This document shows positions 12,652 through 63,247 of a stretch of DNA of 64,000 nucleotides, one piece after another. Position 1 is the first letter of the stretch. Each line of letters begins with the position of its first letter. The notes beneath the pieces are model-generated. The model was not told the DNA's origin and searched no databases. It worked only from the letters and a program-made list of their open reading frames with translations. The DNA is from a virus, in the IMG/VR virus record IMGVR_UViG_3300032093_000013; one strand, given 5' to 3'. The position numbers and the translations under genes are program-made.

Positions 12652-12784
12652 AATAACCTCCATGCACATAGAATAACATAACAAAGGGGTTTTCGTTCAT
12701 ACGCTTCACCTCTATATTCTACTACTATCTAGGTGTTTTGTGTTGATTCCTTAACAATAATTTATACCTACGAGTTTATACCTA

Positions 12785-12813
12785 TAAAAAAAGGAGGAGA
12801 TCAACCCCTCCGA
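12785..12813 (-). terminator. Intrinsic terminator closing the riboswitch-controlled small-gene operon
   Basis: GGAGGGG-ttgat-CTCCTCC followed by a U-run. Confidence 0.7.
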
Positions 12814-12816
12814 TTT

Positions 12817-12900
12817 CTACTTAAATAAAAATTGAATATAAAGCGACAATAAAACAAGTACAACCGCAGATCCTGCGGCAATTTGTAATACTGCGAACAT
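12817..12900 (-). CDS. 27-aa single-TM peptide
   Basis: Manual translation MFAVLQIAAGSAVVLVLLSLYIQFLFK; TGATG coupling to the upstream ORF. Confidence 0.55.
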   Translation of the reverse strand: MFAVLQIAAGSAVVLVLLSLYIQFLFK

Positions 12901-12998
12901 CACTTTGCTCCAACGAGTTGTGCTAGTTGTGCTTGGTGACGGCGCTCTTCTTTTTGTTTTTGCTCTTTAATGATTTGAAGGAAGTTAAGTTTTTTCAC
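12900..12998 (-). CDS. 32-aa basic peptide
   Basis: GTG start overlapping the DUF4278 stop, after a GGAGGGG Shine-Dalgarno; MKKLNFLQIIKEQKQKEERRHQAQLAQLVGAK. Confidence 0.6.
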   Translation of the reverse strand: MKKLNFLQIIKEQKQKEERRHQAQLAQLVGAK

Positions 12999-13132
12999 TT
13001 GTGCCCCTCCTTTACAAACTTAACACCACGATAGGTTTCGTTGTATTGTTGGGCTTGTTGTTGCATTTGCTGTTGGTATTCAATACGCTTTTGAGTATCG
13101 TATTCAACACCACGATATACGACTTTAGACAT
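12995..13132 (-). CDS. DUF4278-family small protein (45 aa)
   Basis: Two YRGV repeats: MSKVVYRGVEYDT...NETYRGVKF; AAGGAG Shine-Dalgarno; downstream of glutamine riboswitches. Confidence 0.8.
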   Translation of the reverse strand: MSKVVYRGVEYDTQKRIEYQQQMQQQAQQYNETYRGVKFVKEGHK

Positions 13133-13163
13133 TAGGTTTTCTCCTTAATTTTGAGGCTAAAGA

Positions 13164-13335
13164 GCGTTCCTTCAGTCGGCTTTTGCGTCTATTTTGCACT
13201 CTTTTGGAGTAATCTGTTTGATTTCCCAAACCAAGTCATTTTTTGCTTGTTTTGGAATATCAACTTTATGAATTCTCCCAACCATTAACTGTGCTTGAAG
13301 GCAAGTTAAAAGAAGTGTTTCCATAGATGAACGAC
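13164..13335 (-). ncRNA. Glutamine riboswitch aptamer 2 (glnA-type) with a greatly expanded P2 loop
   Basis: 5' UCGUUCAUCUAU ... 3' AUAGACGCAAAAGCCGACUGAAGGAACG; P1 CGUUC/GAACG and P2 UCUAU/AUAGA; parallels aptamer 1. Confidence 0.65.
13172..13324 (-). CDS. 50-aa ORF nested inside riboswitch aptamer 2
   Basis: Manual translation METLLLTCLQAQLMVGRIHKVDIPKQAKNDLVWEIKQITPKECKIDAKAD. Confidence 0.6.
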   Translation of the reverse strand: METLLLTCLQAQLMVGRIHKVDIPKQAKNDLVWEIKQITPKECKIDAKAD

Positions 13336-13352
13336 CTATAAGTAGGTTTTAA

Positions 13353-13399
13353 TCCGTTCCGAGTCGGCTTACTTCCGTCTGGTTTCCCAGATGAACGAT
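13353..13399 (-). ncRNA. Glutamine riboswitch aptamer 1 (glnA RNA motif)
   Basis: AUCGUUCA-UCUGG-GAAA-CCAGA-CGGAAGUAAGCCGACUCGGAACG; P1 CGUUC/GAACG, GNRA-capped P2 and GGAAGUA junction. Confidence 0.8.
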
Positions 13400-13405
13400 G
13401 AGAGT

Positions 13406-13435
13406 ATTATACTCCCTTTCGTGGATATTTATCAA
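13406..13435 (-). promoter_or_regulatory. Sigma70-type promoter for the riboswitch transcript
   Basis: TTGATA-18nt-TATAAT; predicted start site ~13399, at the first base of aptamer 1. Confidence 0.7.
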
Positions 13436-13443
13436 GTATGATT

Positions 13444-13459
13444 TGTATCATACGATACA
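13444..13459. promoter_or_regulatory. NtcA-binding box
   Basis: TGTA-TCATACGA-TACA, a perfect GTA-N8-TAC palindrome with AT-rich flanks. Confidence 0.7.
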
Positions 13460-13518
13460 AATTTATAAAATCTTCGCGTGAGAAAATTTTGCCGGAATTT
13501 TTTGCCCCTTCTGGGGAA

Positions 13519-13893
13519 TCACTTACGCTTTTTCTTTTCGGGTGCCTGATATCCCCAGAGTTTTGGATTAATCTTTCCATAACCCCAGTCAATATTACGA
13601 ACTACTGGACCGAGATTATCGTAATACATATCAAACAAATTAGATCTCTTTCCACAGCGTGTTAAATCATAACAAGTTTTACCATCAATTTGATAAGTGA
13701 CTATGTAAGCATCAGTTGGAACTTGACTGTCTTTTGCTTCTTCTAGAGTACAGTTTTGTTTGATAACTTCACACCCATATTTTGATTTAAACAATTCCTT
13801 TTCTTCGGGAGTCCAGGCATGGTTTAAATCTTTATTGGGCGCCTCTCCTTTATCTGATGGCATCTTTGGTTTTTCTATAAGATTTTTTTCCAT
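13519..13893 (-). CDS. Conserved cyanophage hypothetical protein
   Basis: ORF track; PTDAYIVTY..FDMYYD..GYGKINPKLWG. Confidence 0.7.
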   Translation of the reverse strand: MEKNLIEKPKMPSDKGEAPNKDLNHAWTPEEKELFKSKYGCEVIKQNCTLEEAKDSQVPTDAYIVTYQIDGKTCYDLTRCGKRSNLFDMYYDNLGPVVRNIDWGYGKINPKLWGYQAPEKKKRK

Positions 13894-48589: not shown

Positions 48590-49923
48590 TTAACCGATTG
48601 TGGGAGCAGTAAGAGCAACTGGAGTTGCTTCTGCTGCAGCAAGGTCAAGAGGGAAGTTGTGGGCGTTTCTTTCATGCCGTTATTGTTATCGTAAAGACTC
48701 TTTATTCTTTACTTCTCTATGTCGCCATAGAGTCCAGACTATCTCTTCATCCGTTCTGGATGCTGGGCATTCGTGGGTAGATTATTGTTGGAACTCACTA
48801 CCTAGTCGTTAGACCTGCCGAAGAACCTATGTCCTCTTCGGATTGGTACGGGATTGTCTACTTGAGAGTTTCCCCGTTTAACCCAGTTTCGTCAAGAAAC
48901 ATTCCTGTTTCAGGGTGACTACATTTAAGAAATCACTTCCATGCCGAGTCCAGCACGGTTGAGAACATCAGCCCAAGTGTTGATAACTTTACCCTGACTA
49001 TCAACGATAGATTGGTTAAAGTTAAAACCATTCAGGTTAAATGCCATCGTGGAAACACCAAGAGCGGTGAACCAGATGCCTACAACAGGCCAAGCAGCAA
49101 GGAAGAAGTGCAGCGAACGGGAGTTATTAAAGGAAGCATATTGGAAAATAAGGCGTCCGAAATAACCGTGAGCAGCAACGATGTTATAAGTCTCTTCTTC
49201 TTGACCAAACTTGTAACCATAGTTCTGCGACTCAGACTCAGTGGTTTCACGAACCAGCGAGGAAGTCACAAGAGAACCGTGCATTGCACTAAACAGAGAA
49301 CCACCGAAGACACCAGCAACTCCAAGCATGTGGAAGGGGTGCATCAGAATGTTGTGCTCTGCCTGGAACACAAGCATGTAGTTGAAAGTACCAGAGATAC
49401 CCAGAGGCATCGCATCAGAGAAAGAACCTTGACCGAAAGGATAGACCAGGAATACAGCAGATGCAGCAGCAACAGGTGCGCTATAAGCAACACAGATCCA
49501 AGGACGCATACCCAGGCGGTAGGAAAGTTCCCATTCACGACCCATATAGGCGTAGATACCAATCAGGAAGTGGAACACAACCAGTTGGAAAGGACCACCG
49601 TTGTAGAGCCACTCATCTAGAGAAGCAGCTTCCCAGATAGGATAGAAGTGCAGTCCAATAGCATTGGACGAAGGAATCACAGCACCAGAGATGATGTTGT
49701 TTCCGTACATAAGAGAACCAGCAACGGGTTCACGAATACCATCGATGTCCACAGGAGGGGCAGCGATAAAGGCAACGATGAAGCAGATGGTAGCAGCAAG
49801 CAGACAAGGAATCATCAGAACGCCGAACCAACCCACATAGAGGCGGTTATCGGTGCTGGTGACCCACTGGCAAAACTGTTCCCAAGTATTTGATTGTCGT
49901 TGTTGAGCGATTGAAGCAGTCAT
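48590..49923 (-). CDS. psbA: Photosystem II D1 protein, spliced (exon 1 49923-48932, exon 2 48677-48590; 359 aa)
   Basis: Joining AT|G restores [19 protein letters not shown]; 992+88=1080 nt in frame; MGREWE indicates the E130 high-light D1 type. Confidence 0.97.
48678..48931 (-). mobile_element. Group I self-splicing intron, 254 nt, no internal ORF
   Basis: Exon ends in U and intron ends in G; P1 GUGAU/GUCAC with a U-G pair, P3 CUGGGU/GCCCAG, P4 CGGG/CCCG, P7 GACUA/UAGUC and P9 CUCUAUG/CAUAGAG. Confidence 0.93.
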
Positions 49924-49937
49924 TTGTTTTTAAAAGG

Positions 49938-50045
49938 ATAGTAAGACCATCAGGGAAATGGTGGAGATACTATGCTCCCCGCACCCTTAGCGGGGATATG
50001 AGAGACGTAATTTATACACCCATAGGTCTCGGTTAACGGGTGTTT
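49938..50045 (-). ncRNA. PhotoRC-II-like RNA motif in the psbA leader
   Basis: ACCGAGAC..GUCUC, CCCCGC/GCGGGG hairpin and ACCAU..CUGAUGGUCUUAC directly 5' of psbA; recalled resemblance to the cyanophage psbA leader motif. Confidence 0.7.
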
Positions 50046-50088
50046 GACAGTGTTACAATCTGTTAGGGATTCATAACATTTGTTTACC

Positions 50089-63144: not shown

Positions 63145-63240
63145 GTCTTTCATGCACGCCACCAATTCTTTGACTGGAAATTGGAAACCAGGCGGGAGAG
63201 AGTCCCATCCGCACCAACTGCCCTTGAGAGAGGCAGTAAA
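63145..63240 (-). ncRNA. wcaG-like RNA motif
   Basis: UUGGUGCGGAUGGGAC..CCCGCCUGGUUUCCAAUUUCCAG..AAUUGGUGGCGUGCAUG; UGGYG copies upstream of the gmd/fcl genes. Confidence 0.7.
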
Positions 63241-63247
63241 CTCAAAT

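What the first reader, a model, noticed from the sequence alone, without database searches (positions are those of the whole stretch)
13164..13335. A protein-coding gene nested inside a riboswitch aptamer
Seen: aptamer 2 repeats the ends of aptamer 1 (CGUUCAUCU.. and ..AGACG.AA..AGCCGACU..GGAACG), but the 4-nt GAAA loop of P2 is replaced by ~130 nt. An intact 50-codon ORF starts in the 5' strand of P2 (UCU-AUG) and stops in the 3' aptamer core (GCC GAC UGA), so its last residues IDAKAD are dictated by RNA structure. Inference: folding and translation exclude each other. Glutamine binding would hide the AUG, and a translating ribosome would melt the aptamer controlling DUF4278, making a two-output switch. 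Covariance searches would likely miss the split aptamer.
Basis: partly seen in the sequence, partly recalled or inferred. Interest (0 to 1): 0.8.

Follow-up and report, generated by a model that had tools for sequence, protein, structure and literature searches.

The report
Gene nested inside phage glutamine riboswitch
A freshwater cyanophage's double glutamine-sensing RNA closes one of its stems around a complete, conserved 50-codon gene, so the sensor fold and translation of that gene cannot coexist on one mRNA; many cyanophages share the layout, standard riboswitch scans miss it, and I found no paper describing it.

Summary
On the minus strand, CGUUCAUCU (13333-13325) and AUAGACGCAAAAGCCGACUGAAGGAACGC (13192-13164) are the two halves of a glutamine-I (glnA, RF01739) unit. 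They are separated by 130 nt that carry an intact 50-codon ORF (13324-13172).

- The ORF is a real gene. 123 of 124 unique variants are open, all have exactly two Cys, and interior codons carry many synonymous changes.
- Its last six codons show almost no synonymous change, so RNA sets the IDAKAD tail.
- The P2 stem across the ORF covaries (UCUAU/AUAGA, UCCCA/UGGGA, UCCUU/AAGGA and others).
- In an arbitrary IMG/VR sample, 65 of 119 unit-2 stems and 48 of 133 unit-1 stems enclose such a gene. In P-SSM4 and P-HM2 both do.
- Rfam misses every split unit, although an uninterrupted twin scores 36.9 bits.

The long-range pairs and the 8-nt P3 strands covary between units (173/185 cells paired against 73/148 within units).

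The reciprocal two-output switch is plausible but untested. This scan noted the same layout before in at least 30 other genomes. I found no published description.

The parts
13406..13435 (-). Promoter-like site TTGATA-18-TATAAT (11 of 12). The predicted start lies just upstream of unit 1. A GTA-N8-TAC palindrome at about 13456-13443 lies upstream.
   Evidence: consensus scan only. The palindrome was read from the sequence. RNA-library contigs cover up to about 13377 and none lies beyond 13400, which is only a weak hint.
13354..13397 (-). Unit 1: P1 5' strand CGUUC 13397-13393; P2a UCUGG-GAAA-CCAGA 13391-13378; junction ACG plus X1=G 13378-13375; AAGUA 13374-13370; P3 strand a AGCCGACU 13369-13362; GGAACG 13360-13355; Y1=G 13354.
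   Evidence: RF01739 39.2 bits.
13334..13353 (-). Linker with a small hairpin (ACCUA-CUUA-UAGGU) that stacks on the predicted inner helix GAACG(13359-13355):CGUUC(13333-13329).
   Evidence: The MFE fold contains this inner helix. Most relatives have a linker of only 3-6 nt.
13323..13333 (-). Unit 2 5' half: P1 5' strand CGUUC 13333-13329, A 13328, P2b 5' strand UCUAU 13327-13323 (overlaps the A and U of the start codon).
   Evidence: CGUUCAUCU is unchanged in 63 of 64 aligned relatives, the exception being the decayed locus L159. P2b pairing and covariation.
13172..13324 (-). Nested gene, 50 codons plus UGA: two-helix mini-protein with invariant Cys8 and Cys43 and a C-terminal IDAKAD tail.
   Evidence: ORF. 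158 protein clusters. Codon-position entropy 0.47/0.19/1.01. 0 stops in frame against 525 and 590 in the other frames. AF2 pLDDT 85.6, helices 2-20 and 25-38, tail 48-50 below 50. No family apart from a weak phrog_504 match.
13206..13227 (-). Hairpin inside the ORF (codons W33-P40, GGGAAAU-CAAACAG-AUUACUCC).
   Evidence: RNAalifold and pair counts: two pairs with 15 double changes each, at third codon positions E34/I38 and I35/Q37. Modest support.
13164..13192 (-). Unit 2 3' half: P2b 3' strand AUAGA 13192-13188 (Ile45 and the first two bases of Asp46); junction ACG plus X2=C 13188-13185; AAA; P3 strand b AGCCGACU 13181-13174 (3rd nt of Lys48, Ala49, Asp50, U of UGA); GAA; GGAACG 13170-13165; Y2=C 13164.
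   Evidence: Identical 3' half in the uninterrupted twin L205, RF01739 36.9 bits. No synonymous change at codons 45-47 and 49-50. Trans covariation.
13141..13164 (-). Expression platform: anti-SD CUCUUUAG 13164-13157 (starts with Y2) pairs with SD UUAAGGAG 13148-13141.
   Evidence: 8-bp hairpin in all folds. It matches the model given for gifB in PMC6212724.
12995..13132 (-). Regulated gene: 45-aa DUF4278 / IF17-like peptide with two YRG motifs.
   Evidence: Pfam DUF4278 E 0.0011, 19.7 bits, below the cut-off of 25.3. phrog_5049 E 1.7e-10. 65 of 72 unique relatives have such a gene here.
12793..12998 (-). Rest of the mini-operon: 32-aa ORF 12998-12900, hydrophobic 28-aa ORF 12903-12817, and an intrinsic-terminator-like hairpin 12811-12793 followed by a T run.
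   Evidence: Not studied further.

Best explanation
The leader of a small cyanophage operon is a double glutamine-I riboswitch that controls an IF17-like (DUF4278) peptide. One of its stems (P2 of the second unit) closes around an independent, translated 50-codon gene.

Shown:
- The gene is under protein-level selection.
- The flanking riboswitch nucleotides and the P2 pairing are under RNA-level selection.
- The last six codons and the stop codon are riboswitch core (P2 3' strand, the ACG junction that contacts glutamine, and one strand of P3).

Strongly suggested by covariation:
- The two units are interlocked.
- An outer core is built from unit 1's P1 5' strand, P2a, ACG-G and AAGUA, plus unit 2's GAA, P1 3' strand and C13164.
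- An inner, circularly permuted core is built from unit 1's P1 3' strand, the linker loop, unit 2's P1 5' strand, P2b and ACG-C.
- The two cores are joined by a shared P3 helix, strand a 13369-13362 with strand b 13181-13174.

Inferred:
- A 30S subunit on the AUG needs CGUUCAUCUAUG single-stranded, and a ribosome on codons 45-50 melts P2b, junction b and the shared P3. The folded, glutamine-bound state and translation of the nested gene therefore exclude each other.
- At high glutamine the fold forms, C13164 pairs with G13375 instead of with the SD, the IF17-like peptide is made and the nested AUG is hidden.
- At low glutamine the fold is loose, the nested protein is made and the SD stays masked.
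For: - Aptamer identity: the uninterrupted twins L205 (36.9 bits), L168, L263, L242 and S-CREM1 hit RF01739 with the same 5' and 3' halves.
- Coding: 158 clusters with invariant C8, W33, E34, K41 and C43. 123 of 124 unique split units have an open frame from an AUG 9-11 nt after C1, all with exactly 2 Cys. Third-position entropy is 1.01 against 0.19 at second positions.
- RNA constraint on the tail: Ile45 is ATA 56/56 against 23/333 elsewhere. Asp46/50 is GAC 123/123 against 33/105 elsewhere. Fisher p = 7e-6.
- P2b covariation: 13 distinct strand combinations, 12 fully paired, against 27% when partners are shuffled. Pairs 3-5 show U-A/C-G, A-U/C-G/U-A and U-A/A-U/C-G.
- Interlock: X1:Y2 is paired in 123/123 and X2:Y1 in 119/123 tandems, while the within-unit pairs hold in only 62/123. 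25 of 25 single host aptamers have the within-unit pair G:C. The a:b strand pairs hold in 173/185 cells against 129 +/- 4.6 shuffled (0 of 5000 shuffles as high), and within units in 73/148.
- S-SRM01's loss of the UGA (U to G) is matched by A to C in unit 1, about 190 nt upstream.
- Natural experiment: the two relatives with no downstream gene have a decayed P1 and junction but an intact ORF, and one of them has a changed tail, IDPKFD.
- Platform and ON logic of type-1 glutamine riboswitches: PMC6212724. Ligand contacts C1:G59, G22 and C58: PMC6698751.
- RNA-library contigs from four studies cover 13158-13377.
Against: - No experiment shows glutamine binding by this RNA or translation of the ORF.
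- P1 and most core nucleotides never vary, so P1 partner choice rests on one capping pair and on the P3 strands.
- Sequences are related, so the number of independent compensatory events is smaller than the counts suggest.
- Nearest-neighbour energies do not favour the interlocked fold: -56.5 against -59.4 for side-by-side units, and -64.6 for the free MFE.
- There is no canonical SD before the nested AUG.
- A ribosome terminating at UGA would also reach the first nucleotides of the anti-SD. That could switch the DUF4278 gene on rather than keep it off.
- The ORF survives where the riboswitch has decayed, so it does not need glutamine control.
- The RNA-library contigs cannot exclude DNA carry-over.
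Confidence: 0.6

Rival explanations
1. Passive passenger. The P2 loop is simply a tolerant place where a small phage gene settled once and was then inherited and duplicated with the riboswitch. Both functions are kept, but the clash between folding and translation has no selected regulatory role.
For: - Host aptamers also vary most in P2 length, 52-108 nt overall.
- The P2-equivalent stem-loop was replaced for crystallisation without loss of binding (PMC6698751).
- The unit-1 and unit-2 nested proteins look homologous (hhalign probability 89%, E 2e-6), which fits one origin followed by duplication.
- The ORF persists where the riboswitch has decayed.
- 49 of 119 unit-2 stems and 83 of 133 unit-1 stems lack any ORF.
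Against: - The AUG always sits 9-13 nt after C1, at the distal end of P2. In 64 of 65 sampled unit-2 cases the stop is the same core UGA.
- Translation therefore necessarily unfolds both cores, which is hard to keep neutral for a translational riboswitch.
- The layout is maintained across marine and freshwater lineages.
Confidence: 0.25
2. Translational coupling. Ribosomes finishing the nested ORF at UGA (13174-13172) melt GGAACG and the start of the anti-SD. Translation of the nested gene would then switch the DUF4278 gene on, in parallel with or instead of glutamine.
For: - The stop lies 1 nt before GGAACG and 8 nt before the anti-SD CUCUUUAG.
- The stop position is fixed in 64 of 65 sampled split unit-2 cases.
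Against: - The UGA is part of the aptamer consensus in ORF-free units too, so its position needs no coupling to explain it.
- S-SRM01 reads five codons further.
- Unit-1 nested ORFs stop at several places.
- A footprint would open only the first 2-3 of the 8 anti-SD pairs. This is inference from the usual ribosome footprint size.
Confidence: 0.1
3. Dead relic or non-coding expansion. Either the insertion destroyed unit 2 and the flanks are leftovers, or the 130 nt are a structured RNA expansion and the ORF is not translated.
For: - Rfam finds no second aptamer.
- The within-unit long-range pair of unit 2 is C:C.
- A hairpin inside the ORF shows some covariation.
Against: - The flanks are frozen at synonymous sites, P2b covaries, and the strands covary with unit 1.
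- The flanks decay only where the downstream gene is lost.
- The frame is open in 123 of 124 variants, indels come in whole codons, the two Cys are conserved, and third positions vary most.
Confidence: 0.04

Closest known systems
Type-1 glutamine riboswitch (glnA RNA, Rfam RF01739), e.g. the Synechocystis gifB/IF17 leader (PMC6212724)
   Same: Same core nucleotides (CGUUCA, ACG junction, GGAACG), the same kind of downstream gene (DUF4278), and the same anti-SD design in which the nucleotide after P1 is shared between the long-range pair and the SD mask.
   Different: Host examples are single, have a short P2 hairpin and a within-unit G:C long-range pair (25 of 25). Here two units appear interlocked, and a stem encloses a whole gene whose start and last codons are part of the fold.
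Tandem riboswitches with two ligand sites, such as the glycine riboswitch, and the 'tandem glnA RNAs' noted by Weinberg et al. 2010 (PMC2864571)
   Same: Two ligand-binding cores on one leader, thought to sharpen the response.
   Different: Published descriptions treat the glnA tandems as units in series. Covariation here places P1, P3 and the capping pairs between units, so one core is a circular permutation sitting inside P3 of the other. My knowledge of the glycine case comes from memory and was not checked here.
Group I introns with ORFs in peripheral loops (e.g. phage T4 td / I-TevI; review PMC3984707)
   Same: A protein gene sits in a loop of a functional RNA fold, so translation and RNA folding compete on one transcript.
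   Different: There the RNA is a ribozyme and the ORF a homing endonuclease lying wholly within a loop. Here the RNA is a metabolite sensor, and the start codon, six sense codons and the stop codon are themselves core RNA positions.
Riboswitches that bury the SD or start codon in the aptamer, and dual-function RNAs (SgrS/SgrT, RNAIII/hld, tmRNA); from general knowledge
   Same: One stretch of RNA serves both as structure and as message or ribosome site.
   Different: In those cases only the start of the regulated gene, or a separate part of the RNA, is shared. I know of no case where an aptamer closes 3' of the stop codon of a gene it contains.

Membership tests
Glutamine-I riboswitch (RF01739) | P1 strands CGUUC / GAACG carrying the ligand-contact pairs C1:G59 and G2:C58 | tested here: met
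   Both strands are present (13333-13329 and 13169-13165) and are unchanged in 63 of 64 relatives; the exception is the decayed locus L159. Which 5' strand pairs with which 3' strand cannot be told from P1 itself.
Glutamine-I riboswitch (RF01739) | P2 stem directly after CGUUCA, closed before the ACG junction | tested here: met
   UCUAU/AUAGA across 130 nt. 122 of 124 unique split units have at least 5 contiguous pairs, with compensatory changes at pairs 3-5.
Glutamine-I riboswitch (RF01739) | Junction ACG (G22 contacts glutamine) | tested here: met
   GAC GCA codons at 13189-13184. GAC is 65/65 and GCA 63/63 with no synonymous variant. Contacts as described in PMC6698751.
Glutamine-I riboswitch (RF01739) | Long-range capping pair between the nucleotide after ACG and the nucleotide after GAACG | tested here: not met
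   Within unit 2 it is C:C, and within unit 1 G:G. Between units it is G13375:C13164 and C13185:G13354. Across tandems the between-unit pairs hold in 123/123 and 119/123, the within-unit pairs in 62/123.
Glutamine-I riboswitch (RF01739) | E-loop strands (AAGUA and GAAG) flanking P3 | tested here: inconclusive
   Unit 2 has AAA in place of AAGUA but keeps GAAG. Unit 1 has AAGUA but only C in place of GAAG. Together they make one complete set, as the interlocked model predicts.
Glutamine-I riboswitch (RF01739) | Covariance-model score at or above the gathering score (35 bits) | tested here: not met
   No hit for 13164-13335 at E <= 10. The uninterrupted twin L205, with the same flanks, scores 36.9 bits. 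The failure is due to the 130-nt insert.
Glutamine-I riboswitch (RF01739) | Selective binding of L-glutamine | not testable with these tools
   Needs in-line probing or ITC.
Glutamine-II riboswitch (RF01704) | Covariance-model score at or above 33 bits, and a pseudoknot with downstream sequence | tested here: not met
   Uninterrupted relatives of unit 2 score only 21.6-25 bits (L205, L263); 28.8 bits on L168 falls mainly on its first unit. There is no hit in the window. It shares ACGC with this family.
DUF4278 / IF17-like peptides (downstream gene) | Pfam PF14105 match above the cut-off | tested here: inconclusive
   19.7 bits against a cut-off of 25.3, E 0.0011. Two YRG motifs. phrog_5049 E 1.7e-10.
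Nested Cys2 mini-protein (no named family) | Any Pfam, PHROG or solved-fold match | tested here: not met
   Pfam gives none. phrog_504 E 0.007 only. Foldseek against PDB gives nothing below E 3.7. The Atlas gives unnamed clusters with scores of at most 0.78.

The most novel reading that the evidence does not exclude
Cyanomyoviruses use an interlocked, two-site glutamine riboswitch as a reciprocal translational switch. The unfolded RNA is the mRNA of one or two nested Cys2 mini-proteins, and the glutamine-bound fold hides their start codons while unmasking the SD of an IF17-like glutamine-synthetase inhibitor. As a consequence, residues of the nested protein (for example Ala/Val49) and even its stop codon change only together with compensating nucleotides about 190 nt upstream in the sensor.
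Probability: 0.4. Interest if true: 0.9.

Novelty: new variant of a known kind. Interest (0 to 1): 0.8.

Why it matters
1. It is a gene whose start, last six codons and stop are working parts of a metabolite sensor. That is a clear case of overlapping protein and RNA constraints: an amino-acid polymorphism and a stop-codon loss are each matched by compensating changes in distant RNA.
2. It suggests a riboswitch with two opposite translational outputs from one fold.
3. It shows why riboswitches look rare in phages. A survey found only two glutamine aptamers in cyanophage genomes (PMC5473149). Yet P-SSM4 and P-HM2 carry two split units each that Rfam cannot see, and hundreds of IMG/VR contigs do the same.
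4. The between-unit covariation implies that 'tandem' glnA RNAs are one interlocked two-site fold, which can be tested by structure probing.
5. Culturable systems exist (P-HM2/MED4, P-SSM4/NATL2A), so all of this can be checked directly.

Tried and rejected
- Rfam at E <= 10 on 12700-13600 found no second aptamer. A covariance model cannot bridge a 130-nt insert, so I compared natural uninterrupted twins instead.
- Function of the nested protein: Pfam, PHROGs, Foldseek against PDB and the ESM Atlas gave nothing usable. A lipoprotein or signal-peptide reading of the N-terminus was rejected for this family because Cys is at residue 8 and there is no basic n-region. That is a reading of the sequence only.
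- P1 covariation cannot be had, because P1 never varies.
- The P2 extension (G/A)CACUC with GAGUG(U/C) shows frozen codons (Leu4 CTC 60/65, Glu42 GAG 59/59). It is broken without compensation where residue 42 is Thr or Asn, so I treat it as optional.
- Nearest-neighbour energies do not separate the side-by-side and interlocked folds.
- The 3'-half pattern scan of 185,579 species genomes gave 6 hits, all on phage-like or mis-binned contigs. This type is therefore phage-borne, and I found no host example of a nested gene among those searched.
- Metatranscriptome contigs cover the split unit. They cannot show transcript ends, strand or translation, and the lack of cover beyond 13400 is not evidence.
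- Literature searches found no description of nested ORFs or interlocked tandems. Ames & Breaker 2011 (RNA Biol 8:82) is not held and could not be checked.
- No complex prediction was run.

Full report
**What is there**

The window is a T4-like cyanophage: PhotoRC-II, wcaG and a group I intron are all hit by Rfam. Its closest isolates are the freshwater Synechococcus phages DSL-LC02, S-SRM01 and DSL-LC03.

On the minus strand a promoter-like site (TTGATA-18-TATAAT, 13435-13406) precedes a plain glutamine-I aptamer at 13399-13351 (RF01739, 39.2 bits). A 21-nt linker follows. The sequence then reads CGUUCA-UCUAU (13333-13323), 130 nt, AUAGA-CGC-AAA-AGCCGACU-GAA-GGAACG-C (13192-13164).

An ORF of 50 codons runs from 13324 to 13172. 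The A and U of its AUG are the last two bases of the P2 5' strand. Its codons 45-50 (AUA GAC GCA AAA GCC GAC) and its UGA make up the P2 3' strand, the ACG junction and the P3 strand.

After GGAACG-C comes an 8-bp anti-SD/SD hairpin (13164-13141) and a 45-aa DUF4278-like gene (13132-12995).

**The flanks are a glutamine-riboswitch unit**

Rfam does not see unit 2 even at E <= 10. Natural relatives that have a short hairpin in place of the insert do hit RF01739:
- L205: UUCGUUCAUCUCCUUUGGAGACGCAAAAGCCGACUGAAGGAACG, 36.9 bits, with the same 5' nine nucleotides and the same 3' half as the window.
- L168 (P-TIM68), 35.4 bits; L263, 34.7; L242, 34.6; S-CREM1, 33.5.

The window's unit differs from these only in the distal part of P2.

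**The insert is a real gene**

- A protein search found 158 clusters, nearly all of 50 aa, with invariant M1, L6, C8, Q10, W33, E34, K41 and C43.
- In 62 unique 50-codon variants, entropy at codon positions 1, 2 and 3 over codons 5-41 is 0.47, 0.19 and 1.01. Every one of the 36 degenerate interior codons has synonymous variants.
- Across all families found by the RNA flank alone, 123 of 124 unique split units have an open frame starting 9-11 nt after C1. All 123 have exactly two Cys. There are no in-frame stops, against 525 and 590 in the other two frames.
- AlphaFold2 gives a confident helical hairpin (pLDDT 85.6, helices 2-20 and 25-38) with a low-confidence tail at residues 48-50.
- No family or fold match gives a function.

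**RNA dictates the tail**

- Ile45 is ATA in 56 of 56 variants, while ATA makes up only 23 of 333 Ile codons elsewhere in the gene.
- Asp46 and Asp50 are GAC in 123 of 123, against 33 of 105 elsewhere.
- Ala47 is always GCA and Ala49 always GCC.
- Five of the six tail codons have no synonymous variant, against none of the 36 interior codons (Fisher p = 7e-6).
- Very different nested proteins all end in D-A-(K/N)-(A/V)-D.
- In the two relatives where no gene follows and a terminator comes at once (L046, L159), GGAACG and, in L159, CGUUCA and ACG have decayed. The ORF is intact in both, and in L159 its tail reads IDPKFD.

**P2 pairs across the gene**

Covariation is present. Among 124 unique split units:
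- pair 3 is U-A (90), C-G (31) or U-G (3);
- pair 4 is A-U (89), C-G (13), U-A (11) or U-G (11);
- pair 5 is U-A (92), A-U (18), U-G (10) or C-G (2), with 2 mismatches.

Thirteen distinct strand combinations exist, among them UCUAU/AUAGA, UCCCA/UGGGA, UCCUU/AAGGA, UCCUC/GAGGA, UCCCU/AGGGA and UCUUA/UAAGA. Twelve are fully paired, against 27% when partners are shuffled. The 5' strand is untranslated and the 3' strand is coding, so protein selection cannot produce this pattern.

**How common it is**

Of these, 65 have a nested ORF of 49-66 aa, 49 have a short hairpin and 5 lack upstream sequence.
- A scan with the unit-1 3' half gave 48 split and 83 plain. All 47 unique split ones have an open frame of 61-73 aa with exactly two Cys.
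- In the marine phages P-SSM4 and P-HM2 both units are split by annotated hypothetical genes (PSSM4_169.2/169.3, PHM2_179/180). Rfam finds no glutamine aptamer in either locus.
- The unit-1 and unit-2 proteins align Cys to Cys (hhalign probability 89%, E 2e-6). The gene-in-stem unit was therefore probably duplicated.
- The 3'-half pattern is essentially absent from 185,579 cellular species genomes: 6 hits, all on phage-like or mis-binned contigs.
- A published survey found only two glutamine aptamers in cyanophage genomes and concluded that phages rarely use riboswitches (PMC5473149).

**A correction: the units look interlocked**

In glutamine-I the nucleotide after ACG (X) pairs with the nucleotide after GAACG (Y). 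The numbering was checked against PMC6698751.

- All 25 single host aptamers sampled have X:Y = G:C.
- In 123 unique phage tandems, (X1, Y1, X2, Y2) is CGCG in 60, GGCC in 55 (the window's class), and GACC, GCGC, GGAC, CCGG or CTGG in the rest.
- Within units the pair is possible in only 62 of 123. Between units, X1:Y2 is possible in 123 of 123 and X2:Y1 in 119 of 123.
a8:b1 is U-A, G-C, U-G, A-U or C-G in 32 of 37. a5:b4 is G-C, A-U or G-U in 35 of 37. a1:b8 is paired in 35 of 37.
- Five variable between-unit pairs hold in 173 of 185 cells, against 129 +/- 4.6 with shuffled partners (0 of 5000 shuffles as high). The within-unit alternatives hold in 73 of 148.
- Unit 1 has the AAGUA E-loop strand but lacks GAAG. 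Unit 2 is the reverse.

The simplest reading is one canonical outer core whose P3 continues into a circularly permuted inner core, with the nested gene in the P2 of the inner core.

- Ala49 (GCC) against Val49 (GUU) in the protein goes with G against A at a5 in unit 1.
- S-SRM01's loss of the stop (UGA to GGA) goes with A to C at a1.
- Nearest-neighbour energies do not decide between the folds: -56.5 interlocked against -59.4 side by side.
- The sequences are related, so I hold this part at roughly 0.6-0.7.

**Mechanism**

Known: type-1 glutamine riboswitches switch translation of gifB/IF17 on. In the unbound state the nucleotide after P1 and its neighbours mask the ribosome site (PMC6212724). 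Here C13164 begins the anti-SD and is complementary to G13375.

Inferred:
- Initiation at AUG 13324 needs the P1 and P2 5' strands free.
- Elongation through codons 45-50 melts P2b, junction b and the shared P3.
- A translated nested gene and a ligand-competent fold therefore cannot coexist on one molecule.

The most economical logic is reciprocal: nested protein at low glutamine, IF17-like peptide at high glutamine. I give this about 0.4-0.45. A neutral passenger (about 0.25) and termination-driven unmasking of the SD (about 0.1) remain open.

RNA-library contigs from four studies span the split unit, for example 13163-13333 with 3 mismatches and 13158-13377 with 4. This shows presence in RNA libraries, not translation.

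**Novelty**

The glutamine riboswitch, its tandem occurrence and its link to DUF4278 are all known. Not found in any paper I could search:
- a gene enclosed by a riboswitch stem, with shared start, sense and stop codons;
- the spread of this layout in cyanophages;
- the between-unit pairing.

Ames & Breaker 2011 could not be read. Earlier notes of this scan report the same layout in at least 30 other genomes. They are AI notes, not independent evidence.

Noticed in passing
L015:1236-1480 (also L017, L047, L052, L058, L014); L165:296-530; L166:296-530: In many relatives unit 1 also encloses a gene. The freshwater form is a 66-73-aa protein with a signal-peptide-like start (MTKALLLLAWVPLLS...) and two Cys. 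The marine form is ...HWEMSC...EYLIDYF...C...IGRK, whose last codons read GGA CGC AAG UAA through the aptamer core. The window's unit 1 is plain.
   Followed up: partly
L002:1495-1735 (Synechococcus phage S-SRM01): The core UGA is GGA, so the nested ORF runs five codons further (55 aa). The changed base (b8, U to G) is matched by A to C at a1 (GUAAG to GUACG) in unit 1, about 190 nt upstream.
   Followed up: yes
L037:863-1665 and L038: The two riboswitch units are about 580 nt apart because an ORF lies between them; its last 146 residues gave no Pfam hit. The downstream gene is also different (MALILI...). The GGCC class of capping nucleotides is retained.
   Followed up: partly
L046:1437-1720; L159:1190-1440: Relatives with a terminator directly after the nested ORF and no DUF4278 gene. 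The riboswitch core has decayed (AGAAAC for GGAACG; CAUUCA; GACCCAAAA), but the ORF is intact.
   Followed up: yes
window 13206-13227 (-): Hairpin inside the nested ORF (codons 33-40). Its pairs covary at synonymous third positions (E34 GAG/GAA with I38 AUC/AUU; I35 with Q37). It may help compact the long P2 'loop'.
   Followed up: partly
window 13443-13456 (-): GTA-N8-TAC palindrome (TGTATCGTATGATACA) 31 nt upstream of the TATAAT box. It is NtcA-box-like but not at the canonical 22-nt spacing. [quoted passage not shown]
   Followed up: no
window 12817-12998 (-): Two further micro-ORFs (32 aa; and a hydrophobic 28 aa, MMFAVLQIAAGSAVVLVLLSLYIQFLFK) lie between the DUF4278 gene and the terminator at 12811-12793.
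   Followed up: no
window 48715-48976 (-), 49962-50055 (-), 63148-63245 (-): Rfam hits to a group I intron (57.7 bits), PhotoRC-II (84.2 bits) and wcaG RNA (103.1 bits), typical of cyanomyoviruses.
   Followed up: no
L338-L366 (host cyanobacterial genomes): Single host glutamine-I aptamers span 52-108 nt because P2 varies in length. All 25 have the within-unit capping pair G:C and a full AAGUA/GAAG set.
   Followed up: partly
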